This document shows, piece after piece, positions 8,971-31,214 of a stretch of 64,000 bases of DNA. The notes beneath the pieces are model-generated. The model had not been told where the DNA came from and made no database searches. It was given only the letters and a program-made list of their open reading frames with translations. This DNA comes from an uncultured bacterium (GTDB lineage: Bacteria > Patescibacteriota > Minisyncoccia > Phycocordibacterales > UBA11359), in contig CAIKZC010000010.1 in assembly GCA_903831815.1 (NCBI GenBank), positions 14,914 through 78,913 on the forward strand, given 5' to 3'. A program made the position numbers and the translations under genes. Position 1 is the first letter of the stretch; the number at the start of each line of letters is the position of its first letter.

Positions 8971-9045
8971 GGCTCTATCGTCTAACGGTTAGGACACGGC
9001 CTTTTCAAGGCTGGAATCGGGGTTCGATTCCCCGTAGAGTCACCA
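8971..9045 (+). tRNA. tRNA-Glu (anticodon TTC), CCA encoded
   Basis: GGCTCTA acceptor, anticodon stem CGGCC/GGCTG with loop TTTTCAA, T-arm CGGGG-TTCGATT-CCCCG, ACCA. Confidence 0.8.
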
Positions 9046-10673
9046 GTTAACTTTTTACGTCTCAAAAGGGCTTCAAAACCGTCTTTTCCCTTGAAATCTA
9101 CTAGCTTTTTGTTGTTAAAGGTAAGTTCGGTAAACATCATTGCTGCAATATCCCTTTTTTCATTATCAAGAGCGAATTTATAGTACAGGCTCGCACGTTT
9201 GATGAGTTCGGAAAAAGTTGTTACGTATTTGAGCATTTCTTGTGCGGCTTCGCCGTATGCTCCGGCTTTCTGTCTGATCTCATTTAGTTGTCCCATCAGC
9301 CTGTTCTCCTCGGTTTTGGCATCTTCAATGCTCATTGAGTTCGTCCTTAGAAGGGTAATACGATTTTTAGTTAGATAATCCAGATCCGCATAGACTCGCT
9401 TCTCTTGATTGTGAAGATCGTCGAGCTCTTTGTTGCGTTTTATGGTAATCGCATCTATACCTGAGCGTGCTTTGACCTCAAGTTCTCGCAATTCTTCATC
9501 ATCGAAATGCATGCGGTCCATTAGCGACTGTATACTCGCGTGGATATCGCTCTCTTTTAGATTTCTATCTGGGTTATTGCACGTTGCAGCACATCGCAGT
9601 CGATAGTAGCCGATACCCTTTCTTATATAATGACAATATGCACGGCCGCAAGTGCATCGAATCAGTTTTCTGTAAGTTGCGAACTTTTTATTGACGTAAT
9701 ATACCGATACACAACGCGCCTTCAGAACCTCTTGAACCTTATTAAAGAGACTAGTATCTATGAGTGGTTGATGCGCGGTTGAGATTATGAAGCCCTCTTT
9801 TGTTCTGTTCTGGCCTATATAAAATGGGTTAGTTAATATGTGCTCGATCGTTTTGTGTGTCACAGGTCTTGAAATCTTAGGCATCGTTTCGAGTTCTATA
9901 TTGGATAAAATCTGGTCCTCTGTTCTTTTGCCGCGAGAAGGTTTTGTCGTCAGCCCTTGTTCGTTGGCCCATTTACTCAACTCGAGTACACTCCAATCGC
10001 CTGTGGCGTACAATTCAAATATACGCTTTACAATAGGTGCTCGTACTGGGTCTATTGGTTTGTCACCTGATCCATTATCGAGATAGCCGGTAGGAGAGCA
10101 GTTAATGAACTTGCCCTCGGCTCGTAATTTTCTGTTTGTGTTTCTTACTTTTTCACTGATAACTCTAGAGTAGTGGGTAGAGAACATGCCATCGATGTCC
10201 ATGTGTAAGTCACCGGAGCTACTTTTTTCGTAAGTTGTTTCGGAAAATCTAATGTCGCAACCCAGCTTAAGTAACTTTTTGATGATTACGTCATCTTGCC
10301 CGTTGCGACTCGCTCGGTCCCAACATAGGAATATGGCCCCTTTTATTTCTTTATTCTTGAGCATTCCAACAAGTCGCAGAAACTTTGGTCTTTCGATTTT
10401 ATATTGGACAGTGCCGTTCGGCATAATTTCAAAACATTCATCTTCCTTGAAACCGGAATGTCTTTCATTGATAATCCCAGCATTGCAGAAGTTTGGTATT
10501 GTCAGATCGGCTATATTTAATTTTTCTCTTTTTGCGAATCGTAAGTTTGCACCCCTCTGATATTCCAAAGAATTTTTTTGGTTGTCGGCGTCATCTGTAC
10601 TCTTACGGTCGTACACGATGTGCATGTCCCTGAAAGGACTTGATGTTTGTTTTATCTGGTTCTGATTTTTCAT
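8982..10673 (-). CDS. Large serine recombinase/integrase (563 aa); 3' end reads through tRNA-Glu on the opposite strand
   Basis: N-terminal resolvase catalytic domain with YDRKST catalytic-serine context; recombinase domain, Cys-rich zinc-ribbon region (CTCGRAYCH...C) and coiled coil; last ~21 codons are the antisense of the tRNA. Confidence 0.75.
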   Translation of the reverse strand: MKNQNQIKQTSSPFRDMHIVYDRKSTDDADNQKNSLEYQRGANLRFAKREKLNIADLTIPNFCNAGIINERHSGFKEDECFEIMPNGTVQYKIERPKFLRLVGMLKNKEIKGAIFLCWDRASRNGQDDVIIKKLLKLGCDIRFSETTYEKSSSGDLHMDIDGMFSTHYSRVISEKVRNTNRKLRAEGKFINCSPTGYLDNGSGDKPIDPVRAPIVKRIFELYATGDWSVLELSKWANEQGLTTKPSRGKRTEDQILSNIELETMPKISRPVTHKTIEHILTNPFYIGQNRTKEGFIISTAHQPLIDTSLFNKVQEVLKARCVSVYYVNKKFATYRKLIRCTCGRAYCHYIRKGIGYYRLRCAATCNNPDRNLKESDIHASIQSLMDRMHFDDEELRELEVKARSGIDAITIKRNKELDDLHNQEKRVYADLDYLTKNRITLLRTNSMSIEDAKTEENRLMGQLNEIRQKAGAYGEAAQEMLKYVTTFSELIKRASLYYKFALDNEKRDIAAMMFTELTFNNKKLVDFKGKDGFEALLRRKKLTGDSTGNRTPIPALKRPCPNR

Positions 10674-16374: not shown

Positions 16375-17256
16375 ATGAAGATGATTATAGCGGTATTAGT
16401 TGTGATGTTTGTTTGTGCTGGCAACGTAATGGCTGGGGCATGGACCACCATTAACATACCTGGCGGCGGCACAAACTTGTTTGGGGTCAGTGGAAATAAC
16501 ATGGTTGGTAGTTCCTCTCGAGGTGGTTCATTCTACGATGGAACAAGCTGGGCTACCATTAACTATCCTGGGGCATCGAGTGCGGTCCCGTACGCGATCA
16601 GTGGCAACACTATCGTGGGTGAATACCGCGGAGGTACCCACAGTGGTCCTGGTAAGCAGGGCTATGGTTTCATCTATGACGGAACAAATTGGACCACCGT
16701 GGATGCCCCTGGACCAAACTACACAATTTTGTGCGGTATTTCTGGGAACAACATTGTTGGTCAGTACACCGATGCCTCTGACAACAATCACGGTTATTTC
16801 TACAATGGAACAAGTTGGGCGACCCTGGACTATCCTGGGGCAGGCGCAACATACCTACAAGGCATTTCCGGCACAAACATCGTTGGTTGGGAAGAAGGTG
16901 CTCCTGATGGTGACAACGCCTTTCTGTATGATGGAACGACGTGGAAAACTCTTGATATGCCCGGGGTGAATAGCTGGAGCATAGTTCCACGTGGCATTGA
17001 CGGCAGCAACATCGTTGGTTACTACAGCGCTCCAGACGCCACGCATGGTTTTCTCTACGACGGGACGACCTGGACCACACTTGATTACCCTGGGGCATTG
17101 GATACGATGGTGTATGGCATATCCGGTGGCGACATCGTTGGTGAGTATACTGACAACTCGGGGAACTATGGGTTTCTCTATACTGTTCCCGAACCAGCAA
17201 CACTTGGGCTGCTCAGTTTCGGTTTTCTGGCTCTGGTGCGCAGGCGACGGCGCTGA
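16375..17256 (+). CDS. Secreted repeat protein with a C-terminal PEP-CTERM sorting signal
   Basis: Signal peptide; about 7 repeats of a ~30-aa motif (Y/F)DGT(S/T)W(A/T)T(I/L)(D/N)YPGA...GISG.NIVG; C-terminus VPEPATLGLLSFGFLALVRRRRR-stop is a textbook PEP-CTERM (PEP, TM helix, Arg cluster); GC markedly above its surroundings. Confidence 0.7.
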   Translation: MKMIIAVLVVMFVCAGNVMAGAWTTINIPGGGTNLFGVSGNNMVGSSSRGGSFYDGTSWATINYPGASSAVPYAISGNTIVGEYRGGTHSGPGKQGYGFIYDGTNWTTVDAPGPNYTILCGISGNNIVGQYTDASDNNHGYFYNGTSWATLDYPGAGATYLQGISGTNIVGWEEGAPDGDNAFLYDGTTWKTLDMPGVNSWSIVPRGIDGSNIVGYYSAPDATHGFLYDGTTWTTLDYPGALDTMVYGISGGDIVGEYTDNSGNYGFLYTVPEPATLGLLSFGFLALVRRRRR

Positions 17257-17361
17257 TCTCGTGTCTTTGTTGGGAACAAAACAAGGCTGGTGGATTCATT
17301 TCCATCGGCCTTTTCTTTTATTTGGGTAATACCTAAGTTAGCCACCCGCTCTGAACATTAA

Positions 17362-17697
17362 TTATAACAAGTGGTCAACAAGCATTCCTTTGTATCTTCT
17401 GCTCCTGTATTCAAGATTTAGGCATTTCCGACAACCAATCTCTGAGTTTAACGGATGCACAAACAACGTACCAACACGTTCACTACATTTTGGGCACTTA
17501 AACCAATACCGCAAACCATTGAATGCGGTTTTAGATGGCGTAAGCTCGATAATCTGATCACTCATTTCAAGTTCGGCTGTTAACAGTACGCCCTTCAGTT
17601 TTGCCTTGGCCTGCCTGATATAGGTTGTGATGTTAATCTTCTGGCAGTCTTCAACCAGCATTTTTTCTCCTAAATCATTTGGGTTGAATGTTTTCAT
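17362..17697 (-). CDS. Hypothetical protein with C-terminal CxxC...CxxC zinc-ribbon
   Basis: CPKCSERVG...CRKC pairs; start taken at the internal Met MKTFNP. Confidence 0.35.
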   Translation of the reverse strand: MKTFNPNDLGEKMLVEDCQKINITTYIRQAKAKLKGVLLTAELEMSDQIIELTPSKTAFNGLRYWFKCPKCSERVGTLFVHPLNSEIGCRKCLNLEYRSRRYKGMLVDHLL

Positions 17698-18331
17698 GAT
17701 AATTACGATTATCGTTAATCTGCTGATTTTGAGCCACAAAAGCGTTGTGAGTTTTTATGTTCACTTCGAGTTGGGGTTGTTTCAATTGCCTTAAAGCCGT
17801 CATCATTGAAAGGAAGTTTCTGTATGATCTGTCGGCTTGTTTACTAAAGAAAGCGCCACATCTTGTTGAGGCGTCATCTACTTCTTCAACACAATTTAGA
17901 AAATCATTGAGTCGCTTCTGATCATTAATCACTTGTACATGAGCGAGCGCAACAAGCTCGGCTGTGGCTTTCTCAAGAGCAGTGGTGCATTTATAATCTT
18001 TTTCGATTTGTTGGACCACATTTAAGACTAGTGGCGCATATTTTTTACTGACGGAGTGTCTGAGATGGTAGTGATTTTCTAAACCTAAAGCCATCACAAA
18101 CTGATCGGATTGTTCCTGAAGATACTTTTTTGCTTCATCTTTTCCTTTTTTACTACCATCTTTCAGTTTCTGTAAGACGCCAGATATTTCACGAAACAAG
18201 TATTCAGGGTCACATCCGGCATGCATGCTATCACGCACAAACTGTTTGCTTTCCTCGGTGGTAGGGGGTTTTGATAAGGCCTTTGTGGTGTGGTTTTCAT
18301 TTTTATTTTGTATTTTGTTTGATATTGACAT
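17675..18331 (-). CDS. Hypothetical protein
   Basis: 218-aa ORF, charged/helical, no recognisable family. Confidence 0.35.
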   Translation of the reverse strand: MSISNKIQNKNENHTTKALSKPPTTEESKQFVRDSMHAGCDPEYLFREISGVLQKLKDGSKKGKDEAKKYLQEQSDQFVMALGLENHYHLRHSVSKKYAPLVLNVVQQIEKDYKCTTALEKATAELVALAHVQVINDQKRLNDFLNCVEEVDDASTRCGAFFSKQADRSYRNFLSMMTALRQLKQPQLEVNIKTHNAFVAQNQQINDNRNYHENIQPK

Positions 18332-18444
18332 GCATTTATCGTGATATACTGTGTTTTGTTAAGTCGTTTATGCCGCGGATGTTAGCTGCTTATTGCTAAG
18401 TGTGAGTTTGTCCAGGAACTTTAGACGGCTGAGTTTATCCATGC

Positions 18445-19983
18445 TTATTTTGATCGCAGGGTATATATTATAAAGTTCGGTAAATAGGTAAACAGGGTCA
18501 CCATTGTTGATGGGTCTCGCAAATATTCTTGATATATGCTGTAAATAGGCGTTAGTTTTGTGGTTCCAAATTTCTCCCCAGAAAAAGGCAGATTTTCTGC
18601 AAAGATTAAATTTTGGAACCGTAGTCTTTTCTCCGGTTTCTTCTCTAGCTTGCGCCAAGTCTCGGCAGTTTTTCTGATGAAGCTAAAACAATACTCTAAG
18701 GCCTCGTCCATATTGAATTCTTCAACTCGTTTGTCGTGAATTTGAGATTCTTTCAGAGCGATTTTTCTGTTTACGTTATCTTTCTGCATTATGAACTCCT
18801 CTTTGGTGTAGGTGTTGGATTCTAGAAGTTCAAATACACGTTGTCGTTGTTGCTCCAGTACTTTTATCTCTTTTCTGATCTGTGCGTTCTGCTCGTCGAA
18901 GTTTTTAAAATTGTTTTTCCAAATATCTAGGACGATAGCTTTGAAGGCTTTTTCATATTGCATGCTTGGATTGATTTCGTTTAGGTGTTCGACGAACATC
19001 TGCTCAAATGATTCTTTAGGAATGAATTTAGCGTGTTCACATTTCTGCTTGTGGTGGTGATAGTATGGGTACCTCTTGCCCGCTTGTCCGGTTGAGTGGC
19101 TACCAGTTAGAGGTTCGTGGCAAAATTGACATACGGCCAATTTCCTTAAGGGGAAAGAGCTGTTGTGTGTCAGGTGTGGCGAGTTCTTGTGTTTGCGACC
19201 GGATTCTTGGCAGAGGTAGAAAAGATTTTCGTCTACGATTGGTTCAAATGAGCCTTTGCTATCAATGTCCCAAACTCGGATAATTCCGCAATAGAGAGGG
19301 TTCTTGATGATTTTCTCAACAAGCTGAGGGATAGCGGTATTGCCTTGTCTGGTGACGAAACCACGCTTGTTTAAGAAGGTTGCCAGAGAGATATAGGTGT
19401 AAGTACCTTTTGAATATTCTTGAAATGCCATTTTGATATAGGGAGCATACTTTGGATCGGGTACGAGGTTGCCGGCTTTTTCGGTTCGACAATATCCGAG
19501 TGGTGCTTGCCAGACCCAGATACCTTGCTTGATTCTTTCTCGCATACCGTTGACGCTTCTTTCTGTTCTTACGTTGTTATCAAATTCAGCAAAACCGGAG
19601 AGCATGACTTCCATGAGTTTGCCGGATGGAGTGTCATCTATTTTTTCAGAAACGGAACGAATTTCGGTGCCGTAATTTTTGAGTTTTTGTTTGACGATGG
19701 CATAGTCAGTTTGGTTGCGGGAAAATCTATCGATTTTGTAGACGATAAAATAGGCAACTTTATTTTTCTTGTTGGAGCAAAGTGAAATGGCTTTGATGAA
19801 TTCAGTACGATCAGCAGTTTTTGCAGACTCGCCACGTTCGATATAAATCTGGAGGATGTTTACATTTTCTCGTTTAGCATATTCCTTGCACATACGCTCT
19901 TGAGATTCCAAACTGGTGCCGTCAACTTGTTCGAGTGAAGAGACTCGACAATATATTATTCCATTTTTGAGTTCGTTATTCAT
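18445..19983 (-). CDS. Large serine recombinase (512 aa), paralogue of the 26322..27860 recombinase
   Basis: YCRVSSLEQ catalytic-serine motif, resolvase domain, recombinase domain, Cys/His-rich zinc module (CQFCHEPL...YYHHHKQKCEH), C-terminal coiled coil. Confidence 0.75.
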   Translation of the reverse strand: MNNELKNGIIYCRVSSLEQVDGTSLESQERMCKEYAKRENVNILQIYIERGESAKTADRTEFIKAISLCSNKKNKVAYFIVYKIDRFSRNQTDYAIVKQKLKNYGTEIRSVSEKIDDTPSGKLMEVMLSGFAEFDNNVRTERSVNGMRERIKQGIWVWQAPLGYCRTEKAGNLVPDPKYAPYIKMAFQEYSKGTYTYISLATFLNKRGFVTRQGNTAIPQLVEKIIKNPLYCGIIRVWDIDSKGSFEPIVDENLFYLCQESGRKHKNSPHLTHNSSFPLRKLAVCQFCHEPLTGSHSTGQAGKRYPYYHHHKQKCEHAKFIPKESFEQMFVEHLNEINPSMQYEKAFKAIVLDIWKNNFKNFDEQNAQIRKEIKVLEQQRQRVFELLESNTYTKEEFIMQKDNVNRKIALKESQIHDKRVEEFNMDEALEYCFSFIRKTAETWRKLEKKPEKRLRFQNLIFAENLPFSGEKFGTTKLTPIYSIYQEYLRDPSTMVTLFTYLPNFIIYTLRSK

Positions 19984-19993
19984 GGCAGTAGTT

Positions 19994-20179
19994 TTACATA
20001 TCCAAATTTAGAAGTCTATCCACCCCAAGGGGATTATTGGAACCACATTTGTCCTCAATGAAACATTCAATGGCTAGTTGGGCTTGGCCATATAGTAAAT
20101 TACGAATTTTCGTTAATTCTTCGTCAGATTTTTCTTGCAAGGCCGGCTCTATTCTTTTGAGTTCATCGAGGGAGATCAT
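19994..20179 (-). CDS. Hypothetical small protein (overlaps the Rep gene by 4 nt: ATGA)
   Basis: 61-aa ORF translationally coupled to the upstream rep. Confidence 0.3.
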   Translation of the reverse strand: MISLDELKRIEPALQEKSDEELTKIRNLLYGQAQLAIECFIEDKCGSNNPLGVDRLLNLDM

Positions 20180-20982
20180 AGCAGTTCGCGAAGGTTGGGC
20201 AGGATGTCAAAAATCGACTGCTTTTTGCCAAGATTGTATTGTTTGTAGCCGACTGTTCCATTGTAAGAGCTTTCAAAATCTTTTTCTTTGGTGAGAAATT
20301 TTTGTGGTATCAGTTTAGAAATTCTGGTAGCTTTAATATGATCTTTGATCACGATAGGCCTGTGGAGGTAACGACTCGGAAAATATCTTTTTAATCCATC
20401 TAGTCGGCTGTCCGCTAAATTCTTGGACATATATTTTGAAATATACGCACCTACATTATTCACGTTTTCAATCGCTTTGATTTTGATATGACCGTATCGC
20501 CAGAGTTCAGCCAAAGTTTCTTTCTTGATGAATTTCAGATTGAAGAAAATAGTGTGATAGTGAATCGCTCCACGTTTTTGGAATTCAATGACCACGACAT
20601 ATTTGAGTAGATTGTTTTCGTCTACCGCATAATTAAGACGTTTAATAAAATTAGAAAATATTTTATTCGCTTCTTTTATGTTTTGGATATTTTCTTTAAA
20701 AGTAAAAGTAACGAAAACCGGAGGGTAGGGAACGGCATCTTTTTTGAACCATTGCCAAGCATTGGTGTTGACCAGTCTTCGCAAGATTGAATTTGTACGA
20801 TGAAGTGATCGTTGTTGAGATTCCGCTTTGCGCTGTTTGCTGGCTTCATCAGTCACCACAATTCTGGATCGAGTACGGCTTTGTTCGGGTACGGTAAAAT
20901 CATAGGACAGTGGTTTGTCGTCATAGCTGTATTCCTCAATAGTGGAACCAGAAAATATTAGTTTTTTCTTAGTTAATTTCAT
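20176..20982 (-). CDS. HUH rolling-circle replication initiator (two-tyrosine, phiX174 gpA/Microviridae VP4-like or plasmid Rep-like)
   Basis: Metal-binding HUH motif AIHYHTIFF and catalytic motif GAYISKYMSK (Y-x-x-K-Y); start taken at the internal Met MKLTKKK (track start 21063 would translate the upstream GC hairpin). Confidence 0.55.
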   Translation of the reverse strand: MKLTKKKLIFSGSTIEEYSYDDKPLSYDFTVPEQSRTRSRIVVTDEASKQRKAESQQRSLHRTNSILRRLVNTNAWQWFKKDAVPYPPVFVTFTFKENIQNIKEANKIFSNFIKRLNYAVDENNLLKYVVVIEFQKRGAIHYHTIFFNLKFIKKETLAELWRYGHIKIKAIENVNNVGAYISKYMSKNLADSRLDGLKRYFPSRYLHRPIVIKDHIKATRISKLIPQKFLTKEKDFESSYNGTVGYKQYNLGKKQSIFDILPNLRELL

Positions 20983-21034
20983 CCCTTTATGTGTGACTAT
21001 AATCAAGTCCAACCGGACTTCGCTTCGCTCGTCC

Positions 21035-21061
21035 GCCCGCCCCGCATAAGCGGGGGCGGGC
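21035..21061. promoter_or_regulatory. GC-rich hairpin immediately upstream of the Rep gene: candidate rolling-circle origin (nick-site stem-loop) or regulatory structure
   Basis: GCCCGCCCCGC-ATAA-GCGGGGGCGGGC: ~11-bp nearly pure-GC stem with one bulge in otherwise AT-rich DNA, ~50 nt upstream of the preferred Rep start. Confidence 0.4.
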
Positions 21062-21154
21062 ACCCGACAGCGATAGCAAAAAGACCATGATGTATTGTCA
21101 TGGCCAAGTATAAATAACGACTTAGAGAAAACTTTTCTAGAAATTCGGTAAAGT

Positions 21155-21895
21155 TTATAGAACCCTTAAATATTCTGGGTTAATTCGCACTTTTCCGGAT
21201 ATGGTAGAGTTAAAAATTAGAAATTGTTTGATCTTGTTGTCGGTCGCTTCTCGCACTTTTTCGTTGATGGCTTTGCAGGCAGAGTGATAGCGTTTCCAGT
21301 TATCTTTGTCTTTGGTGTATAGCTCCTTATTTTCGCCAAATTCCTCTCTGGCTATTTCAGCGTAATAGAACTCGTCTTTCAGATTATCTTCGTGATCAAT
21401 GAAAATATTTTTTAGAATTTTGTGTTCGTTGGTTACCTTGTCTTGTCTGGCGATTTTGATCTCGTGTTCACCAATTCGCAAGATACTTTCTGCTTCATTA
21501 AATTCCGGTGTTCTTATTATCTCTTTTGGTTCAATACCTCGCTTATACCGCTCCAGTACTTTATATATTGAATCGGCGACAATGACGTAGAATATTGGAA
21601 TTCGTATTACTCCGTTTACCGTATTATCTACGTCAAAATCGTCTACGTTAGGGTCGAACTTGGCCGGATCGCGAACGGTTTCAATAATTATGCAACCTTT
21701 TTGCTCTAAATATTCAAGAGCTGAACAAAAACCGTATCGGTTCATATTGAGCGGTTCGATATCTTCGCCATATATATCGATGGTAGGTGGTTCATCCTCC
21801 GATGTATGAAGATACCTAGCAGATATCTCAAATTCTTTGAGTTTGAAGACTAATAGCTCTAGTGTTTTGATGATTTCTTGGTCGAAATTGTCCAT
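21155..21895 (-). CDS. Hypothetical protein
   Basis: 246-aa acidic ORF, no recognisable family. Confidence 0.35.
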   Translation of the reverse strand: MDNFDQEIIKTLELLVFKLKEFEISARYLHTSEDEPPTIDIYGEDIEPLNMNRYGFCSALEYLEQKGCIIIETVRDPAKFDPNVDDFDVDNTVNGVIRIPIFYVIVADSIYKVLERYKRGIEPKEIIRTPEFNEAESILRIGEHEIKIARQDKVTNEHKILKNIFIDHEDNLKDEFYYAEIAREEFGENKELYTKDKDNWKRYHSACKAINEKVREATDNKIKQFLIFNSTISGKVRINPEYLRVL

Positions 21896-21970
21896 GGTTT
21901 TTATGCGGGTATATTAGCACTTTTTAGACTTGAAGTAATGGAGTTATGAACAGGCAAATGACCGGTTAGT

Positions 21971-21991
21971 AATATCCAAACTTTGGATATT
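21971..21991. promoter_or_regulatory. Perfect 21-bp palindrome AATATCCAAA-C-TTTGGATATT upstream of an XRE regulator (candidate operator)
   Basis: Dyad symmetry in the divergent promoter region ~30 nt upstream of the XRE start. Confidence 0.5.
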
Positions 21992-22019
21992 GAATATTTA
22001 GATAGACCATAGTAGTATT

Positions 22020-22241
22020 ATGACAAGGTCTATAAGAACAAGGGAATATGCTTATTTTGTCGAGCGATTAAGAAAAGCTCGTGAAGAGGCGGGATTAACT
22101 CAGGTGGAGGTTGCTAGGAAGTTAAAACGTCCGCAGTCGCATATTTCTAATGTGGAATCCGGACAGCAAAGGGTTGATGTTGTCGAACTTCAAAACTTTG
22201 CGAAGATCTATAATAAGGAAATAGGGTATTTTATTAAATAA
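22020..22241 (+). CDS. XRE-family HTH transcriptional regulator
   Basis: GLTQVEVARKLKRPQSHISNVESGQQRVDVVELQNFAKIY Cro/C1-type HTH. Confidence 0.8.
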   Translation: MTRSIRTREYAYFVERLRKAREEAGLTQVEVARKLKRPQSHISNVESGQQRVDVVELQNFAKIYNKEIGYFIK

Positions 22242-22247
22242 AAATTT

Positions 22248-22757
22248 ATGTTTTGTAAACATTGTGGGACTAGCTTGGAAGAAGGAGTGAAGTTTTGTGG
22301 TAAGTGTGGAGGAAAAAATGCAGATGCCGTTGCTCTTGCAGAATCTTCTTTTGTAATACAGGAAGGTTTTTTTGAGCGTATTTCCACGGGCAGACTCGGC
22401 AGACGAAATTATTTCTTTGGCTTATTGTACACAATTTTGCCGATTCCTATTTTGGTTACGTTTTGGGGGTTGATTAGTTTTCTTCTGGGTCAAGAGTCTC
22501 CGATCTTCTCATTTTTTAGCATGATAATCCCGCTTCTTATTGGTCTTGCTGTATTATGGTTCCTAGCCTCTCTTCCTGTGTCTATCTGCATAACAATTAG
22601 ACGTTGTCATGATTTCGGTTTGAGTGGGTGGTTTGTTCTATTAGGAGGCATAATAATGTTAATTGCATTATTTCCAGGTAGTAACAAAGGCTTAAATGAA
22701 TACGGTAAACCGCCGGTGAAAGGCAGGAAATTTTTATCTGATATTTTTAATAAATAA
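22248..22757 (+). CDS. Zinc-ribbon domain membrane protein with DUF805-like 4-TM region
   Basis: N-terminal MFCKHCG...KFCGKCG double CxxC zinc ribbon, then a DUF805-like hydrophobic core (YFFGLLYTILPIPILVTFW...). Confidence 0.6.
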   Translation: MFCKHCGTSLEEGVKFCGKCGGKNADAVALAESSFVIQEGFFERISTGRLGRRNYFFGLLYTILPIPILVTFWGLISFLLGQESPIFSFFSMIIPLLIGLAVLWFLASLPVSICITIRRCHDFGLSGWFVLLGGIIMLIALFPGSNKGLNEYGKPPVKGRKFLSDIFNK

Positions 22758-22762
22758 AAACC

Positions 22763-23896
22763 ATGTTTTGTAAAAATTGTGGGAACAAGATTAAAGATGA
22801 AGAAAAGTTTTGTTCATCTTGCGGAGTTGGAGCTGGGCAAGTTGGTAAAAGTGATCTGCCGGCAGATTCTGTTAAAAAGGAAGTAAGAGCAATAATTAAG
22901 TGTGGGAATTGCGCCTACATTGGTCCTGGAGAGCCAGCAAGAAGCATTGCCGGCATAATCCTAGCTTGGCTATGTGTTTTGTTCGCTCCGATAATCACAA
23001 TTATATATTTTGCGGCAACCCACAAATATAGGTGTCCAAAATGTAAGTCTACGTTTCTTGGTGTCAAAAACAGAGAAGGCAATTTTGTTGGTCAAAGTGG
23101 TGCTGGGCGAGTCGTTATTGTGATTGTTTTTCTACTTGTCGGTATTGCTGTTATGGGTATTTTATCTGCTATTGTTTTAGCATCATTAAATAGTGCACGC
23201 ACGAAAGCTAAAGATGCTCAAATTCAGGCAGGTCTTAGTAGTATGCGAGCGGCTGCCGAGATTTATTATTCAAAAAATTTAGAATCTTATTCAGTAGCTT
23301 CCGACTGTAATCATGGGATGTTTGCTTCCAGTGATCTTTCCGATCTTGTTTCTAACGTTCAGGAAAAAGGTACCAACGTAAAATGTTACGCAAATGGTGA
23401 CAGTTGGGCTGCTTCCTCTGTACTAACTAATTCAACGGGCGATAGTTGGTGTGTTGATAGTACTGGCAAAAGTCAAAATGGGACGGCTACAGAGAGTAAC
23501 TTGAAAGCTTTTTGTTCTAAAGATATTTCTTCAAATAGTTCAGTTGAAGATTCAAGTGATTCTATGACTAACGAAGAATATGTTAAACAAGTAGTTGTTG
23601 AAGCAAAAAAACAACTAACTCTCCCAAAAAAGACTGATGAAAATACGACTTTGACGGATATTGTCGCTGAACAATCAACCTTGCGTTATAAGTACACTCT
23701 GCAAGGGTTAGACCTAAGTGATTATACCGACAGTTCATTTAATAAAAAAATGAAGCCTTTGCTGGCCGATGATCTGTGTAAAAATGATAGTCTGACTGGT
23801 TTTCTGAATAGAGGCATAGATGTAAAGTATTCATATTTAGATTTAGAAACATACAAAAGTTATCTCATAACCTTTACTAAGGGTGATTGTTTATAA
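22763..23896 (+). CDS. Zinc-ribbon domain membrane protein fused to a type IV pilin-like N-terminal helix and a ~240-aa extracellular domain
   Basis: MFCKNCG...KFCSSCG zinc ribbon; TM; segment ILSAIVLASLNSARTKAKDAQIQAGLSSMRAAAEIYY resembles the pilin/pseudopilin N-terminal helix; Ser/Thr/Cys-containing C-terminal domain. Confidence 0.55.
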   Translation: MFCKNCGNKIKDEEKFCSSCGVGAGQVGKSDLPADSVKKEVRAIIKCGNCAYIGPGEPARSIAGIILAWLCVLFAPIITIIYFAATHKYRCPKCKSTFLGVKNREGNFVGQSGAGRVVIVIVFLLVGIAVMGILSAIVLASLNSARTKAKDAQIQAGLSSMRAAAEIYYSKNLESYSVASDCNHGMFASSDLSDLVSNVQEKGTNVKCYANGDSWAASSVLTNSTGDSWCVDSTGKSQNGTATESNLKAFCSKDISSNSSVEDSSDSMTNEEYVKQVVVEAKKQLTLPKKTDENTTLTDIVAEQSTLRYKYTLQGLDLSDYTDSSFNKKMKPLLADDLCKNDSLTGFLNRGIDVKYSYLDLETYKSYLITFTKGDCL

Positions 23897-23901
23897 AATA
23901 T

Positions 23902-24132
23902 ATGCACTGCACAAATTGTGGGAACAAAAATGATCCTGATACAAAATTCTGTGGTAAATGCGGAGCTGAGCATATCGTGAAAGACACAGACTCAAAAATA
24001 AATTTTGTATCTAATTCTACTTGGGCTACTCAAACAACAGGTGTCAAAATTGCAATATACATAGTACTTGCATTTGCTGGTCTAATACTTGTTTCTATGA
24101 TTCTTTTGTATATTCCTTCTTTTTGGCGTTAA
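23902..24132 (+). CDS. Small zinc-ribbon protein with C-terminal TM anchor
   Basis: MHCTNCG...KFCGKCG zinc ribbon, then IAIYIVLAFAGLILVSMILLYI. Confidence 0.5.
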   Translation: MHCTNCGNKNDPDTKFCGKCGAEHIVKDTDSKINFVSNSTWATQTTGVKIAIYIVLAFAGLILVSMILLYIPSFWR

Positions 24133-24326
24133 TGGCGGTCTATCCTGTAGAGAAATTTGTAAGATAAGCCTAAATTAAACGGCTTACTTATGTGTGGCTA
24201 TTCGCAAGTTGTGGATATCCAACAGCTTGACTTTTGTAGCCCCATGGAGTAAGATACTAAGTGAAAGTCACCTGCGCCAGCGAAAGCTGTGTGCAGGTTT
24301 TCGTTATGGGGTGTATAATACAGGCC

Positions 24327-25004
24327 ATGGAACGAATCTGTATACATATTGATGGGGGTAATTTCTACCATTTAGTCCTCAAAAAACTCGGTCTAAAAGA
24401 GAAAGATTTTGACTTTGATAAGTTCACTCAATTTCTCGCCGGAGAGAAAAGGACTATATCTGAAATGGGTAAACGATACTATGTGGGTACAGTAAGAGAA
24501 AAAGTTGGTGACGAGAGAAGTAAAATATCGATGGCTTTGCAAACCTCACTTTTTGCACGACTGAAATCTACTAAATGGGAAATAAAAACAAGCAAATTAA
24601 GGACGAGGATCGAAGAAATTGTTATTGACCAGAGAGTACAAGATTTTAAAAAACTGCAGAAATTGGGAATCAAATCTATTGTATTTGAAAGACAGCGAGA
24701 GAAGGGTATTGATGTAAAACTGGCTACTGATCTGATTGTCGGAGCAATAGATAACAAATATGATACAGCTATAGTAGTTAGTTCGGATGGTGATCTTATT
24801 CCAGCAATTGATTGGGTACGAAATAGATTTAAGAAGAAAATAGAATACGTCGGCTTTTCTATTGCAGATCCAAAAAATCCAAAAAATTCTACTAGACCGT
24901 TGCTTTCGATGATACCAAAAACAGATATTCAACGTACTTTGACAGCAGAGGACTTAAAGCCGTTTATCATTCGATTACCGTTAACCGATGGGGAGGTTGG
25001 CTAA
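24327..25004 (+). CDS. NYN-domain (LabA-like, PF01936) protein
   Basis: IHIDGGNFYH ... GIDVKLATDLI ... YDTAIVVSSDGDLIPAIDWV; a TATAAT hexamer sits 10 nt upstream of the ATG, so the mRNA is possibly leaderless. Confidence 0.7.
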   Translation: MERICIHIDGGNFYHLVLKKLGLKEKDFDFDKFTQFLAGEKRTISEMGKRYYVGTVREKVGDERSKISMALQTSLFARLKSTKWEIKTSKLRTRIEEIVIDQRVQDFKKLQKLGIKSIVFERQREKGIDVKLATDLIVGAIDNKYDTAIVVSSDGDLIPAIDWVRNRFKKKIEYVGFSIADPKNPKNSTRPLLSMIPKTDIQRTLTAEDLKPFIIRLPLTDGEVG

Positions 25005-25013
25005 AATCTATAT

Positions 25014-25667
25014 ATGCATAATATAATATTCAGACACTTTTCGGAGAAAAATACTTCCAATGTTGGTTCAATTGTTGATTGGATAACTATTCTCACATTT
25101 ATTACAACAATCGTTATTTTCTTAATTGATAGTTATTTCAATCGAAGACAAGAACATGAAAAGTGTTTGAATAGATTACTGTCTTTGAAATTTGAGCTTC
25201 AAAAAAATACGAATATAATAAATAAGTTTATCAACGAAATTGAAAAACAGTTATTAAGCGGGAGTAAAGTGGTTTATTACAGGTACGACACTTTGGTAAC
25301 GGAGTCTCTTATTTCAAGTGGAGAAATATTGGACTCGGATTTTCTTAGAAACCTTGATGCAATTTTAGGTGAAGAAAAACAAATAAACAGGCTTTTGGAC
25401 AGCATTGAAAAAATGGCAGATATGTCGCACGTAGATTCTGGTGACATTGCAAATTTGTTTAAAAATAGAATAACCACTGCTTCAAATTTGGTTGTATCAA
25501 TAAACAAAAATTTGACCAAATATTATCCAAAGGTAATCGATGGATTAGGTTCATATATTAGAAAAACAGAGGCAAAGAAATTTTTGGGCGTAAAGGCTTT
25601 TAATGTTTGTACTAATGAAAAGGAGATTAAAGAGGAGTTTTGGAAGGAGAAATATCAAATTTTATAG
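25014..25667 (+). CDS. Hypothetical protein with N-terminal TM helix
   Basis: 217 aa, TM ITILTFITTIVIFLI followed by a helical cytoplasmic domain. Confidence 0.4.
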   Translation: MHNIIFRHFSEKNTSNVGSIVDWITILTFITTIVIFLIDSYFNRRQEHEKCLNRLLSLKFELQKNTNIINKFINEIEKQLLSGSKVVYYRYDTLVTESLISSGEILDSDFLRNLDAILGEEKQINRLLDSIEKMADMSHVDSGDIANLFKNRITTASNLVVSINKNLTKYYPKVIDGLGSYIRKTEAKKFLGVKAFNVCTNEKEIKEEFWKEKYQIL

Positions 25668-25693
25668 CCACGATACCCTTAAACTCCTGGTGT

Positions 25694-25743
25694 GCCCTTA
25701 TATTCCCACAAACTTGGTCCCAATTCCATTTAACGAGGGTCAC
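25694..25743. repeat. Direct repeat copy 1 (50 bp, 45/50 identical to 26286..26335) flanking the NUDIX gene
   Basis: GCCCTTATATTCCCACAAACTTGGTCCCAATTCCATTTAACGAGGGTCAC. Confidence 0.6.
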
Positions 25744-25791
25744 TCGTGAACATCGTGAATGTTGTGAACATCTCTGGTACAATCATCTGAT

Positions 25792-26247
25792 ATGGATAAA
25801 AAGATTATTATTCGATGCAGAGCTATTATTCTCCACAAAGGAAAATTGTTGGTTGTTAAACATTCACCGGAAAATACTTTTTATGTGTTGCCTGGAGGCC
25901 ACTTTGAATGGGGCGAGGAGGTGAAGGAGTGTATGAGTCGTGAATTGGAGGAAGAGCTTGGCATAAAAGGTGATGTGGGGAGATTGTTTTATGTAAACAA
26001 TTTTGTGTGCGACGATACGGATTATATAAGTAAGGGTACACAATCTATTGAATTTTTCTTTGAAATAAAAAACTCTGCTGATTATGCAAATATGAACAAA
26101 CCAACTGGTTCGCATGCCGATGAGATCTATGAACTCAGATGGGTTAGCAAAGACGATGATGTGAATATTATGCCACTAAGTATTAGTAAAGATTTAAGAG
26201 ATGGTGAGCTTGGGTCTGAATCGCCCCGCTTCATTAGAAGTCAATAA
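25792..26247 (+). CDS. NUDIX hydrolase
   Basis: Nudix box GGHFEWGEEVKECMSRELEEELGI. Confidence 0.8.
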   Translation: MDKKIIIRCRAIILHKGKLLVVKHSPENTFYVLPGGHFEWGEEVKECMSRELEEELGIKGDVGRLFYVNNFVCDDTDYISKGTQSIEFFFEIKNSADYANMNKPTGSHADEIYELRWVSKDDDVNIMPLSISKDLRDGELGSESPRFIRSQ

Positions 26248-26285
26248 ATGGGTGTTACCTGACTAAAGCACTTAATTCCTGAAAA

Positions 26286-26335
26286 GCCCTTATATTTCCA
26301 CAAAGTTGGTTCCAATTCCATCTAACGTGGGTCAC
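26286..26335. repeat. Direct repeat copy 2 (matches 25694..25743); its GGGTCAC end abuts the left inverted repeat of the recombinase element
   Basis: GCCCTTATATTTCCACAAAGTTGGTTCCAATTCCATCTAACGTGGGTCAC. Confidence 0.6.
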
Positions 26336-27860
26336 ATTCAGATACTTCGGCAGTGGTGAGCGTAAAATGGGAGCGCGCCGCAGGCGCGCTGTAGGGTGAG
26401 AGGGAGGATTTCCCCTTGCGGGTGCGGACGAAAATGGAGGGCGGGCAAAATGAGATTGAGATAGTTTTGTCTTTTAGCGCGGGGTTCGTTCCAAAAGAGC
26501 GGAGAAAATCTCTCATCTCATGGAGATTTTCGCCCGTTGCCAGAAACCCCGCGCGTTTTGAATCCAAAATCCATTTCCGCAGGGGTTCGACCCAATTCTT
26601 TCTCTCGGCTCGGGCAGATGAAGATTTTGCTTGAAGCGAAAGTTTTTGACGCATGAGTGCGTCTTTTTTGGTCAAATATATCTCGCGCTCAATATCTTGG
26701 TTTAAGTACAAATCAACAAGTGCGTCTAACTTCGCTTCAAGAGTCTTCAAATCTTCCTTCATCTGCCCGAGACGATTTCCCGAAGCGTTGATTTCATCGT
26801 GCTCAAATTCTCCAACTTTTTTGAGCATATAATCTGCCCACGCTTCGGGAAACGACACTGATTGAAGCTGTTCCTTTATTTGGAGAGCGAGCGCACCTTC
26901 CTGCAAATATCCCTGACTACATTTTCCTTTCTTTTTCGTGCAACGATAATAGCGATACCTCCCGCCCATTTTTCCAGTACACCATTGAGCAGTAATCATA
27001 GAGTCACATTCGCCGCAACGAAAAAGACCGGTGAAAGGAAAATTGTGGGATATTTTGCTATGCCTCGGATGCGCTCGCTCCTCCAATCTTTTCTGTACAG
27101 CTTCAAACAGGGTCGGAGAAAGAATCGGTGCAAAGCTTCCGGGAAAAAATTCCCCATGATGTTTGGTGAAGCCGAGATACGCTCGATTGGTCAATATTCT
27201 TTTCACGGAAGCTTTGCCAAGTGGCGTTCCGGACTTTTGTGCTACACCGTGGAGAGCCAAAAACTGCGACAACGAAACTAGGGTATGTGAACCTTTTACA
27301 TATTCTTCATATGCTCGAACAATGATTTTAGATTTCACTGGATCAGGCTCTATGTTACGCGTAACGGGATTGTTCACATACCCGAATGGAGCCCGAGTCA
27401 ACCACTCTCCTCGTCGCAGTTTTTGGCGCATACCTCGCTCAACGTTTTGCTTTAAGTTGTCAGAATAATACTTACTTTGTCCGAACGCCACTTGAAGCAT
27501 AAAGAGACCATGCGGAGTTGGCTCAAACCAAAATGTCGGAAAGCGCAAAGAGACTATTTTAGAAGTGTCGACGGCATAAATGATGCGTCCACCGTCAATG
27601 CTGTTTCTGGCTAGACGGTCGGGGTGCCAGGCGAGAATTCCAACATTACCGACTTTCTCAATTTTAAGCATCATTTTGCCGAACACTTCTCTTCCGGGGC
27701 TCTTGGCGCTTTTCGACTCTTGAAATTCCTCAAGGATTTCAAGATTTTCTCTGCTCGCAAATTCACGAAGTTCTACAAGCTGGGCAGGAATGCTCATGAC
27801 TTGCTTGTCGTCATCTTCAGTACTCTTGCGAGCATAGAGAAAATATTTTGGTTTGTTCAT
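26322..27860 (-). CDS. Large serine recombinase (512 aa) of the IS-like element
   Basis: YARKSTEDDD catalytic-serine motif; resolvase + recombinase domains; zinc ribbon CGECDSM...YYRCTKKKGKC; coiled coil; last ~45 codons lie inside the left inverted repeat. Confidence 0.75.
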   Translation of the reverse strand: MNKPKYFLYARKSTEDDDKQVMSIPAQLVELREFASRENLEILEEFQESKSAKSPGREVFGKMMLKIEKVGNVGILAWHPDRLARNSIDGGRIIYAVDTSKIVSLRFPTFWFEPTPHGLFMLQVAFGQSKYYSDNLKQNVERGMRQKLRRGEWLTRAPFGYVNNPVTRNIEPDPVKSKIIVRAYEEYVKGSHTLVSLSQFLALHGVAQKSGTPLGKASVKRILTNRAYLGFTKHHGEFFPGSFAPILSPTLFEAVQKRLEERAHPRHSKISHNFPFTGLFRCGECDSMITAQWCTGKMGGRYRYYRCTKKKGKCSQGYLQEGALALQIKEQLQSVSFPEAWADYMLKKVGEFEHDEINASGNRLGQMKEDLKTLEAKLDALVDLYLNQDIEREIYLTKKDALMRQKLSLQAKSSSARAERKNWVEPLRKWILDSKRAGFLATGENLHEMRDFLRSFGTNPALKDKTISISFCPPSIFVRTRKGKSSLSPYSAPAARSHFTLTTAEVSECDPR

Positions 27861-28021
27861 ATATATGTTTTGGATTCAAAAAAGGAAACTATCTCAATCT
27901 CATTTTGCCCGCCCTCCATTTTCGTCCGCACCCGCAAGGGGAAATCCTCCCTCTCACCCTACAGCGCGCCTGCGGCGCGCTCCCATTTTACGCTCACCCC
28001 TGCCGAAGTATCTGAATGTGA
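26333..28021. mobile_element. Compact IS-like element: one large serine recombinase gene bounded by ~135-bp near-perfect terminal inverted repeats
   Basis: Reverse complement of 26333..26467 matches 27886..28021 almost perfectly (1-2 mismatches seen by eye); the repeats are far more GC-rich than flanking DNA, carry an internal palindrome GCGCGCCGCAGGCGCGC, and enclose only the recombinase. Confidence 0.65.
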
Positions 28022-28070
28022 TCTAATTGTATCCTTTGGAAAAAAGTTCGTGCAAAGGATACAATTAGAT
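28021..28070. terminator. Perfect 18-bp-stem hairpin (ATCTAATTGTATCCTTTG...CAAAGGATACAATTAGAT) abutting the right element end; likely terminator of the downstream minus-strand methyltransferase gene and/or insertion target
   Basis: Perfect inverted repeat with 14-nt loop, located between IRR and the stop of 28091..29023. Confidence 0.45.
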
Positions 28071-28090
28071 CACCGCGTCATTTTATTTTT

Positions 28091-31098: not shown

Positions 31099-31214
31099 CA
31101 AAGCACAGAAAAGAGCGACCGAGAGGGGCTCTCGGACGCCGACGGGCGGAGAGTGAGCGCAATTTTCAGCAGAAAATTGACGCGGACCCTCGAGGTGCTT
31201 TTTTCTGTGCTTTG
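31099..31214. repeat. GC-rich structured palindromic repeat, copy a (family of three copies in this window)
   Basis: Perfect 16-18-bp outer stem GCAAAGCACAGAAAAG/CTTTTTTCTGTGCTTTGC enclosing the conserved core GAGGGGCTCTCGGACGCCGACGGGCGGAGAGTGAGCGCAATTTTCAGCAGAAAATTGACGCGGACCCTC. Confidence 0.7.

What the first reader, a model, noticed from the sequence alone, without database searches (positions are those of the whole stretch)
26333..28021. Minimal IS-like element: one large serine recombinase bounded by ~135-bp near-perfect inverted repeats
The reverse complement of 26333..26467 is almost identical to 27886..28021 (I see only 1-2 mismatches). The pair encloses a single 512-aa large serine recombinase gene, and the recombinase C-terminus is encoded inside the left repeat. 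The repeats are strikingly GC-rich and carry an internal palindrome GCGCGCCGCAGGCGCGC. The right end abuts a perfect 18-bp-stem hairpin (28021..28070) and the left end abuts a 50-bp direct repeat. Known serine-recombinase transposons (IS607 family, Tn4451/Tn5397, Tn554 relatives) generally lack long terminal inverted repeats, so this looks like an unusual, compact mobile unit. A paralogous recombinase (18445..19983, same domain order and zinc module) lies 7 kb away without obvious repeats.
Basis: seen in the sequence. Interest (0 to 1): 0.7.

Follow-up and report, generated by a model that had tools for sequence, protein, structure and literature searches.

The report
tRNA-targeting serine-integrase island with duplicated ends
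The inverted repeats and the recombinase gene are real, but rather than a self-contained insertion sequence they are the integrase module of a large, apparently undescribed family of small genomic islands that insert at the 3' ends of tRNA genes in Patescibacteria, and the window holds a stripped-down copy.

Summary
Observation confirmed: a 144-nt inverted repeat (97%; 26332-26475 / 27878-28021) brackets an intact 512-aa large serine recombinase (LSR). It is not an artefact: three other assemblies reproduce both junctions exactly. It is a family trait: at least 584 species-level genomes encode relatives (the 80 loci fetched are all candidate-phyla/Patescibacteria-type MAGs). 64 of 65 loci examined carry the same IR, and in 56 of 58 its gene-distal tip overlaps the 3' end of a convergent tRNA or tmRNA.

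The IS-like reading is only partly right. The left IR tip (TCAC, 26332) is an element end; the right IR tip is not. Beyond it lies a conserved promoter-like motif, U. In the window the 'hairpin' is a truncated inverted U plus a full U, ending in a second direct TCAC (28070-28073). The element therefore spans 26332-28073. The '50-bp direct repeat' is a degenerate tRNA-Glu 3' part.

The two IR tips are mirror images, so a serine recombinase could invert the cassette between them but not excise it.

Best model: attP = U-core-IR tip and attB = tRNA 3' end. The LSR gene is flanked by an inverted duplicate of its attP, kept alike at the DNA level. Why the duplicate exists is unresolved. New variant of a known kind.

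The parts
26274..26335 (+). Degenerate tRNA-Glu-like 3' part ('frag2'); the B-type arm of the left junction (attL). It ends in the core TCAC.
   Evidence: No tRNA is called here. The sequence aligns colinearly with the anticodon arm to 3' end of the window's tRNA-Glu and of L081's target tRNA, with a 4-nt insertion. In 56 of 58 relatives an intact tRNA/tmRNA 3' end sits at this position.
25682..25743 (+). Second copy of the tRNA-like fragment ('frag1'), 84% identical to frag2. Together with frag2 it brackets the NUDIX gene.
   Evidence: family D1.
26332..26335 (+). Left core TCAC (putative crossover region); a direct repeat of 28070-28073.
   Evidence: Read directly. The same core appears at the tRNA|IR junction and the U|host junction in L019, L059, L064 (GCAC) and L074 (CCGCAA).
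26332..26475 (.). Left IR arm, downstream of the gene. Its tip is the putative P' arm of attL, and it encodes the last ~48 codons of the ORF.
   Evidence: The outer ~25 codons show no codon periodicity across 57 relatives, the inner ~14 are partly constrained, and the tip is conserved as DNA.
26322..27860 (-). Large serine recombinase, 512 aa, intact.
   Evidence: PF00239 + PF07508 + PF13408. More than 100 homologues at 65-96% identity with full coverage. Only distant matches to SPbeta SprA (E=4e-6) and to CcrB/XisF, below their cut-offs.
27878..28021 (.). Right IR arm, upstream of the gene (5' leader of the LSR). Together with U1 it forms an internal inverted copy of the attP-like junction.
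28018..28038 (+). GTGA core plus a truncated reverse-complemented U1 (17 nt); left stem of the hairpin.
   Evidence: Relatives read ...GAATGTGA + TCTAATTGTATCCTTTGCACGAAC... at this position (L001). The stem region 28036-28073 matches L004 and L009 at 92-97%.
28038..28069 (+). Full U2 motif, GGAAAAAAGTTCGTGCAAAGGATACAATTAGA. It is promoter-like and points outward; putative P arm of attR.
   Evidence: the only U in the window. Sigma-70-like prediction TTGGAA-18-TACAAT at 28036-28065 on the + strand.
28070..28073 (+). Right core TCAC, the right end of the element. Unrelated AT-rich DNA follows.
   Evidence: The analogous U2-core|non-IR junctions occur in L019, L059, L064 and L074.

Best explanation
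The locus is a reduced member of a large family of LSR-driven integrative islands of Patescibacteria that insert at the extreme 3' end of tRNA/tmRNA genes.

Shown:
- The LSR gene always lies convergent to the target tRNA.
- Its 3' end and its 5' leader are an inverted repeat of 115-155 nt.
- On the 5' side, a promoter-like motif U follows the repeat. In fuller islands come a GC-rich putative operator region, a divergent HTH_XRE gene and cargo.
- Where both ends are visible (five loci), the island ends at a second, inverted copy of U followed by the same 3-9-nt core found at the tRNA junction, in direct orientation.

Inferred:
- attP = U-core-IR tip and attB = tRNA 3' end-core-downstream DNA. 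The tRNA|IR junction is attL and the U2|host junction is attR.
- The junction U1-core-IR upstream of the LSR is therefore an intact inverted duplicate of attP.
- An excised circle would carry two inverted attP-bearing repeats separating an LSR segment from a cargo segment.
- Integration through the 3'-side copy leaves promoter U1 attached to the LSR gene.
- LSR binding at the 5' copy could autoregulate the promoter.
- The two copies are kept alike by DNA-level homogenisation.

In the window, the cargo has shrunk to a 14-nt loop and U1 to 17 nt. The neighbouring 'tRNA' is a decayed tRNA-Glu 3' fragment that lies 17 kb from the real tRNA-Glu, at the far end of an array of other islands. This copy (26332-28073, 1742 bp) is probably old and poorly expressed, although the ORF is intact.
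For: - Distribution: at least 584 genome loci; the best 80 are all candidate-phyla/Patescibacteria-type MAGs.
- IR in 64 of 65 loci at fixed positions. Arms are 76-100% alike within a locus but only ~70-80% alike between loci.
- tRNA/tmRNA 3' end within 8 nt of the IR tip in 56 of 58 loci, on 17 different tRNA species. The tip sequence covaries with the tRNA end.
- U is conserved next to the other tip.
- Second inverted U/GC copies are 100% identical over 164-226 nt and end exactly at the core in L019, L059 (a closed chromosome, CP060229) and L074. Short versions occur in L064 and the window.
- Many contigs start k-1 nt upstream of the core (k127: 122 nt; k141: 137 nt). This is what a repeated U with two different continuations predicts.
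- Arm mismatches: 129 transversions, 67 A.C, 57 G.U. There is no RNA-pairing bias, so similarity is maintained as DNA.
- A 42%-identical LSR clade has the same IR. It sits in a chain where each LSR module has U on its 5' side and U or a tRNA on its 3' side.
- The window's real tRNA-Glu is occupied by a third LSR, and frag1/frag2 are tRNA-Glu-like.
Against: - No empty attB and no circular junction were recovered. Mobility rests on distribution across tRNAs and on assembly-graph breaks.
- If both attP copies are identical, integration should give both orientations. In fact 63 loci show one orientation. The only 2 opposite cases (L001, L023) are contigs that end inside the IR and could be mis-paths.
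- The P, P' and B arms show no clear shared half-site motif at the spacing known for serine integrases (my reading; inconclusive).
- No directionality factor was identified.
- The far end was seen in only 5 loci; in most others the island exceeds the 4 kb fetched.
- In the window the LSR-facing U1 has lost its -35 element.
Confidence: 0.6

Rival explanations
1. IS-like transposon: the cassette IR-LSR-IR is itself the mobile unit, its IRs are terminal inverted repeats, and it inserts between a tRNA end and U.
For: - The cassette is compact and single-gene, and the IR is conserved in 64 of 65 loci.
- Short palindromes occupy the same slot between tRNA and U in LSR-less loci, and could be read as MITE-like derivatives.
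- L005 has only ~9 nt of U next to the arm.
Against: - The tips are mirror images (TCAC...GTGA). The two junctions therefore carry the core in inverted orientation, so conservative serine recombination between them inverts rather than excises.
- No self-complementary dinucleotide is conserved at a fixed position in the tips.
- One flank is U in nearly all loci and the other a tRNA, so there are no varied insertion sites.
- The stems of the short palindromes lack the conserved GAAACTTC tip motif.
Confidence: 0.1
2. Invertible cassette: the LSR flips its own gene between the inverted sites at the IR tips. This would switch it between the regulated U promoter and read-through from the tRNA gene.
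For: - The geometry is that of an inverton: inverted identical sites around the gene.
- L001 (93% nt identity to the window) and L023 show the LSR 3' arm joined to reverse-complemented U, the flipped state.
- High arm identity fits frequent exchange between the arms.
Against: - 63 of 65 genome loci and all ~20 U-anchored LSR loci of this family in the metagenome set have one orientation.
- Both 'flipped' contigs end inside the other arm, and L001 has an NN gap, which is the pattern of an assembler mis-path through a repeat.
- The window's four independent contigs show only one orientation.
- Canonical LSRs do not recombine attL-like sites with attP-like sites.
Confidence: 0.12
3. RNA-level function: the arms pair in the LSR transcript (5' leader with 3' end), or act as antisense or terminator structures that control expression. 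The DNA repeat would be a by-product.
For: - The arms are GC-rich with a conserved internal GC hairpin.
- In LSR-less loci the same slot holds bidirectional terminator-like hairpins.
- U is promoter-like and fires into the arm.
Against: - Arm mismatches show no G.U excess on either strand: 57 G.U against 67 A.C, plus 129 transversions.
- No Rfam family matches.
- The arms end exactly at the recombination core.
Confidence: 0.06
4. Assembly artefact (fold-back or collapsed repeat).
For: Contigs break inside the IR, and palindromic contigs exist in this family (L106, L112).
Against: - Both junctions are reproduced at 100% in three other samples.
- The arms differ at 4 positions.
- The same architecture appears in 64 loci, including a closed chromosome.
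Confidence: 0.01

Closest known systems
Serine-integrase integrative elements (phiC31, Bxb1, A118, SPbeta SprA; LSR-borne genomic islands, ICEs and IMEs)
   Same: - Three-domain LSR.
- The integrase gene sits at the edge of the element next to the att site.
- A short common core is repeated directly at both junctions.
- The target gene is conserved and left intact.
   Different: - Only distant sequence relation (SprA E=4e-6; Ccr and XisF below cut-off).
- The target is the extreme 3' end of tRNA/tmRNA genes, which is usual for tyrosine integrases.
- The integrase gene is bracketed by a 115-155-nt inverted duplicate of the att arm, and the cargo by a second inverted pair (U/GC). I know of no such arrangement, and none turned up in the literature searches.
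Tycheposons of Prochlorococcus (Hackl et al., doi 10.1101/2020.12.28.424599)
   Same: - Small cargo-carrying islands at tRNA genes in streamlined genomes.
- The integrase lies next to the tRNA.
- Partial tRNAs and stacked arrays of elements occur.
- 27 of the 937 integrase-carrying elements in that survey (tycheposons plus cryptic elements) carry an LSR.
   Different: - Mostly tyrosine recombinases.
- No inverted duplication around the integrase is described.
- Different phylum.
- Homology was not tested here.
Tn4451/Tn5397 (TnpX/TndX large-resolvase transposons)
   Same: - An LSR is the sole mobility enzyme.
- From my own knowledge, the joint of the Tn4451 circular form creates the tnpX promoter. 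Here a promoter-like arm (U) also abuts the core and reads into the LSR.
   Different: - Those elements have GA dinucleotide ends, no long inverted repeats and no tRNA target.
- Cores here are TCAC, GCAC or CCGCAA.
Yeast 2-micron plasmid (FLP/FRT within 599-bp inverted repeats)
   Same: Architectural analogy only: the inferred circle would have two inverted repeats, each holding the recombination site, dividing it into two unique segments.
   Different: - Tyrosine recombinase, eukaryotic plasmid, no integration.
- No circle has been observed here.
Serine DNA invertases (Hin, Gin, Pin)
   Same: The recombinase gene lies between or next to inverted sites.
   Different: - Those are small, enhancer-dependent recombinases with 26-bp sites.
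- Both orientations are readily seen in their populations, which is not the case here.

Membership tests
Large serine recombinase | N-terminal resolvase catalytic domain with the serine nucleophile | tested here: met
   PF00239 E=8.9e-20, residues 7-153. The motif YARKST sits at the N-terminus.
Large serine recombinase | Recombinase domain followed by a zinc-ribbon domain | tested here: met
   PF07508 at residues 174-262 and PF13408 at residues 275-332, both above their cut-offs.
Large serine recombinase | Catalyses attP x attB recombination | not testable with these tools
   Needs a recombination assay.
Site-specific integrative element (genomic island type) | The same class of target is occupied across relatives | tested here: met
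   tRNA/tmRNA 3' end within 8 nt of the IR tip in 56 of 58 loci.
Site-specific integrative element (genomic island type) | Identical short core at both element-host junctions, in direct orientation | tested here: met
   Window: TCAC at 26332 and at 28070. L019 TCA, L059 TCAC, L064 GCAC, L074 CCGCAA.
Site-specific integrative element (genomic island type) | Empty site and/or circular junction observed | tested here: inconclusive
   None was recovered. The only hints are contig ends at k-1 nt from the core on both sides (L081). The window's own strain shows only the occupied state.
Site-specific integrative element (genomic island type) | Recombination directionality factor for excision | not tested
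   No candidate was identified. The only conserved neighbour is the HTH_XRE gene.
Insertion sequence / transposon with terminal inverted repeats | The inverted repeats are the two termini: homology between copies stops at both tips | tested here: not met
   Conservation continues 32 to ~550 nt beyond the promoter-side arm.
Insertion sequence / transposon with terminal inverted repeats | Copies at many unrelated sites | tested here: not met
   One flank is a tRNA/tmRNA and the other is U in nearly all loci.
Insertion sequence / transposon with terminal inverted repeats | The enzyme's chemistry is compatible with excision between the two tips | tested here: not met
   The tips carry the core in inverted orientation (TCAC / GTGA). 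No fixed self-complementary dinucleotide is present. This relies on established serine-recombinase mechanism.
IS607 family | Small serine transposase (~200 aa, catalytic domain C-terminal to an HTH) and no inverted repeats | tested here: not met
   The protein is 512 aa with LSR architecture. NCBIfam transpos_IS607 gives no hit for it.
Tn4451/Tn5397 type | GA dinucleotide at both ends and at the target | tested here: not met
   Cores are TCAC, GCAC or CCGCAA.
Inverton (DNA inversion switch) | Both orientations present in natural populations | tested here: inconclusive
   63 loci in one orientation against 2 in the other. The 2 (L001, L023) are contigs that end inside the repeat.
Tycheposon | tRNA-adjacent integrase, partial tRNAs, stacked cargo islands | tested here: met
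   for the window, and for chains. Sequence homology to tycheposon integrases was not tested.

The most novel reading that the evidence does not exclude
A phylum-wide class of modular serine-integrase elements in which every module (integrase or cargo) is bracketed by its own perfect inverted repeat, and modules are joined at short cores. The attP arm doubles as a repressor-controlled promoter and is kept in two inverted copies. Islands grow into chains by integrating into the distal U-core end of resident islands as well as into tRNA ends. The LSR may also invert modules. This would be a new organisational principle for integrative elements, and a source of compact tRNA-end-specific integrases whose att sites can be predicted.
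Probability: 0.3. Interest if true: 0.72.

Novelty: new variant of a known kind. Interest (0 to 1): 0.56.

Why it matters
Patescibacteria have tiny genomes and few recognised mobile elements. A single LSR family present in hundreds of species, sitting at tRNA and tmRNA ends and carrying defence, restriction-modification, surface-protein and other cargo, would be a major route of gene flux in this group.

The nested inverted-repeat design is unusual for serine integrases. In it, an intact copy of the putative attP is retained next to the integrase in the integrated state. This raises testable questions about autoregulation, orientation choice and how islands stack.

The covariation of the core with the tRNA end gives ready-made attP/attB predictions for many orthogonal small integrases.

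Tried and rejected
- Rfam (gathering thresholds) on the window and on 12 loci: only tRNAs and one tmRNA; nothing in the IR, U or GC-rich region.
- Direct repeats of the tRNA 3' part within 4 kb upstream, as tyrosine-integrase islands would show: none.
- IMG/VR search for the LSR: no relatives, so no sign of a phage origin.
- Exact-protein look-up of the window's LSR: not on record. The neighbouring genes were on record and gave independent contigs, but no empty site.
- RNA-pairing test on arm mismatches: negative.
- Folded single-stranded attP, by analogy with CTX phage or integron attC. I rejected this on paper: double-strand exchange with a hairpin stem would give hairpin-capped chromosome ends and inverted copies of the tRNA around the cassette, which is not what is seen.
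- Shared half-site motif: AGTTC occurs at -25..-21 in U and at -19..-15 in the tRNA arm, a 6-nt offset reminiscent of the zinc-domain motif shift between attP and attB. The IR-tip arm does not fit, so I left this as inconclusive.
- Long inverted repeats around the other two LSR genes of the window: none.
- My first automatic 'state B' class in the metagenome set was mostly a false call. The reverse translation of the upstream arm mimics the C-terminus.
Full report
**1.

The window contains one long inverted repeat, with arms at 26332-26475 and 27878-28021. It is 144 nt long and 97% complementary. Of its four mismatches, only one lies in the outer 135 nt. Nothing comparable exists elsewhere in the 64 kb.

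Between the arms lies ORF 26322..27860 on the minus strand. It encodes 512 aa with the three domains of a large serine recombinase (LSR): PF00239, PF07508 and PF13408, all above their cut-offs. The last ~48 codons are inside the left arm.

The flanking features are also real:
- The hairpin is a perfect 21-bp stem at 28018-28038 / 28053-28073.
- The direct repeat is 62 nt at 84% identity, 25682-25743 / 26274-26335.
- The element is GC-richer than its surroundings.

Contigs from three other samples carry the same NUDIX or methyltransferase neighbours. They reproduce the left junction and the right junction (hairpin included) at 100% identity, and they break inside the repeat. This excludes a one-off assembly artefact.

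**2. The repeat is a family trait, and the family sits at tRNA ends.**

The protein has more than 100 homologues at 65-96% identity over its full length. A scan of one genome per species found at least 584 loci. The 80 best are all candidate-phyla/Patescibacteria-type MAGs, labelled Paceibacteria, Minisyncoccia, Nomurabacteria, Zambryskibacteria and the like.

In 64 of 65 loci the gene is bracketed by an inverted repeat of 115-155 nt. The upstream arm ends 20-60 nt before the ATG, and the downstream arm ends within 5 nt of the stop codon.

Arms are 76-100% alike within a locus but only ~70-80% alike between loci, so they evolve in concert.

Outside the downstream arm, 56 of 58 loci have the 3' end of a convergent tRNA or tmRNA within 8 nt of the tip. 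There are 31 tRNA-Glu, plus Ala, Ser, Arg, Ile, Gly, Pro, Leu, Val and tmRNA. The first 3-6 nt of the tip covary with the tRNA's terminal bases: TCAC, CCAC, GCAC, GGAC, TCCGC.

Several MAGs hold two family members at different tRNAs, for example L009/L076, L013/L036 and L025/L056.

**3. The right IR tip is not an element end.**

Outside the upstream arm, nearly every locus has a conserved ~32-nt motif that I call U: GGAAAAAAGTTCGYGCAAAGGATAnnATTAGA, followed by the core. It reads as a -35 (TTGAAA / TCGAAA / TGGAAA), a 17-18-nt spacer and a TAnnAT -10, placed about 7 nt before the core.

Further upstream lies a ~200-nt GC-rich stretch with two direct repeats of the type CACCACGCA-N-CGGAGCGTGCG. 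In many loci a divergent 66-82-aa HTH_XRE gene follows.

In L019, L059 (a closed chromosome) and L074, a second copy of U plus the GC-rich stretch lies 2.3-3.2 kb further out, in inverted orientation. It is 100% identical over 164-226 nt and stops exactly at the core, after which unrelated DNA follows. L064 has the same arrangement with only 134 nt in between.

Many contigs begin k-1 nt upstream of the core (122 nt for k127, 137 nt for k141). A repeated U with two different continuations predicts exactly this.

The cargo between the U copies varies: a PKD surface protein, a cytidine deaminase, a GrpB-like protein and zinc-ribbon repeat proteins.

**4. Re-reading the window.**

On the plus strand the order is:
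- frag2, a degenerate tRNA-Glu 3' part;
- core TCAC at 26332-26335;
- the left arm, the LSR gene (reverse strand) and the right arm;
- GTGA plus 17 nt of reverse-complemented U1 (28018-28038);
- a full U2 (28038-69, its first 15 nt forming the hairpin loop);
- core TCAC at 28070-28073, followed by AT-rich DNA.

The 'hairpin' is therefore U1 and U2 with the cargo reduced to nothing. The element spans 26332-28073 (1742 bp), with the core as a direct repeat at both ends.

Only the outward-facing U2 scores as a promoter. The LSR-facing copy has lost its -35 element.

The real tRNA-Glu(ttc) lies at 8971-9045. A third LSR (8982..10673, 25% identical, no IR) abuts its 3' end.

The stretch 9046-28073 thus looks like an array of islands downstream of tRNA-Glu. 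The element under study lies at its far end, next to a displaced and decayed tRNA fragment.

**5. Mechanism.**

Serine recombinases exchange strands at a 2-nt overlap, which must read the same in both partner sites (established mechanism). The two IR tips carry the core as mirror images (TCAC...GTGA). They are therefore sites in inverted orientation, and recombination between them could invert the cassette but not excise it. No self-complementary dinucleotide is conserved at a fixed tip position.

By contrast, the tRNA|IR junction and the U2|host junction carry the core as a direct repeat in all five loci where both are visible.

I therefore infer that attP = U-core-IR tip, attB = tRNA 3' end, attL = tRNA|IR and attR = U2|host. 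The junction U1-core-IR upstream of the LSR is then an inverted duplicate of attP. An excised circle would have two inverted attP-bearing repeats separating an LSR segment from a cargo segment.

The duplicate is maintained as DNA, not as an RNA helix. Arm mismatches are 129 transversions, 67 A.C and 57 G.U. The outer ~25 codons of the ORF inside the arm show no codon periodicity, while the tip is conserved at the nucleotide level.

A plausible rationale, which is inference only: integration through the 3' copy keeps the regulated promoter U1 joined to the LSR, and the 5' copy could act as an operator for the LSR itself.

**6. Wider context from a U-anchored metagenome scan.**

U occurs more often without this LSR than with it. 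The contexts found were:
- About 20 of ~120 occurrences lead into IR plus LSR.
- At least 8 lead through a short perfect palindrome, which starts at the core, into the reverse-complemented 3' end of a genuine tRNA. Behind U these loci carry HTH_XRE and restriction-modification, helicase or Hsp20 cargo. I read them as LSR-less islands of the same kind.
- Others lead into unrelated DNA, like attR.
- Three lead into the 3' end of more distant LSRs.

One of those distant LSRs (42% identical) has its own 116-nt IR at 98% identity. It sits in a chain U | LSR module | U-cargo-U | LSR module | U. This suggests islands can stack at the distal U-core end.

**7. What remains open.**
- No empty site and no circle were recovered.
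- Identical attP copies should give both orientations, yet 63 loci show one. The only two opposite cases (L001, which is 93% identical to the window's element, and L023) are contigs ending inside the other arm, and L001 has an NN gap. They may be true alternative integrants, inversions or assembler mis-paths.
- The arms show no convincing shared half-site motif.
- No directionality factor is known.

**8. Comparison and verdict.**

This is a bona fide LSR, only distantly related to characterised ones. It works like the integrase of a tRNA-targeting genomic island, closest in lifestyle to tycheposons and to serine-integrase islands generally.

It fails the tests for an IS with terminal inverted repeats, for IS607 and for Tn4451-type elements. 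The inverton reading is not excluded.

Literature searches found no description of the inverted duplication of the att arm around the integrase, of the second inverted pair around the cargo, or of this family in Patescibacteria.

I rate it a new variant of a known kind, of moderate to good interest. The specific copy in the window is a reduced, probably ageing member.

Noticed in passing
window 8971-10673: A third large serine recombinase (8982..10673, minus strand, 563 aa, PF00239 + PF07508, 25% identical to the one studied). Its 3' end overlaps the 3' end of the intact tRNA-Glu(ttc) at 8971-9045, convergent. This is the same topology as the family studied, but without any inverted repeat.
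   Followed up: partly
window 17362-21895: The paralogous LSR (18445..19983, minus strand) lies beside a rolling-circle Rep gene (20176..21063, PF23343). Nearby are small genes with no significant Pfam domain, which look like a separate integrated plasmid- or ssDNA-phage-like element. No long inverted repeat surrounds it.
   Followed up: partly
window 31125-31189, 38609-38673, 58183-58247: Three copies of a 65-nt GC-rich element in an AT-rich genome. They fold into a conserved two-hairpin structure, and 8 of 26 pairs show compensatory changes. No Rfam family matches at gathering score. This may be a small RNA or a REP-like repeat.
   Followed up: partly
window 25682-26335: The NUDIX gene (25792..26247) is bracketed by the two tRNA-Glu-like 62-nt fragments as direct repeats. 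It looks like a tiny island remnant within the array.
   Followed up: no
window 61635-62490: Tandem array of ~162-nt units (5 copies, 61-80% identity), presumably a repeat-domain protein.
   Followed up: no
window 22227-22298 and 22742-22813: Two adjacent genes share a 72-nt start region, including an N-terminal zinc-ribbon-like motif (MFCKxCG). A third gene at 23887 has the same motif. This is a small paralogous family of membrane proteins.
   Followed up: no
L110, L116, L158, L169, L174, L179, L098 (just after the U-core-hairpin): A recurrent 'pseudo-tRNA 3' end': an acceptor-like ...CTTAGGGTCAC and a T-arm-like TTCGATTC separated by an inserted hairpin. ARAGORN does not call it. It resembles the window's frag1/frag2 and may be a decoy or secondary attachment arm.
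   Followed up: no
L155 1-3331, L168 1-6553, L140, L086: LSR-less islands with the same U / GC-rich / HTH_XRE end module, facing a tRNA through a short palindrome. Their cargo includes restriction-modification methylases, helicases, an Hsp20 and a LexA-like/methyltransferase fusion.
   Followed up: partly
L001 1491-3098 and L023 1640-1700: The LSR 3' arm is joined to reverse-complemented U, the opposite orientation to all other loci. In L001 an NN gap follows, then 23 nt of IR tip and a tRNA-Glu. These are either true alternative integrants, inversions or assembler mis-paths.
   Followed up: partly
L106, L112: Perfectly palindromic metagenome contigs: cargo between two inverted U copies that both run into the same IR/LSR 5' sequence. 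These are probably fold-back assembly products of the U/GC repeat.
   Followed up: no
genome loci L012 and L014; one further locus: ARAGORN calls the target tRNA as tRNA-Ser with anticodon ACT in two loci, and as a tRNA with anticodon TTA ('Stop') in one. These are odd anticodons that may be miscalls or unusual tRNAs.
   Followed up: no
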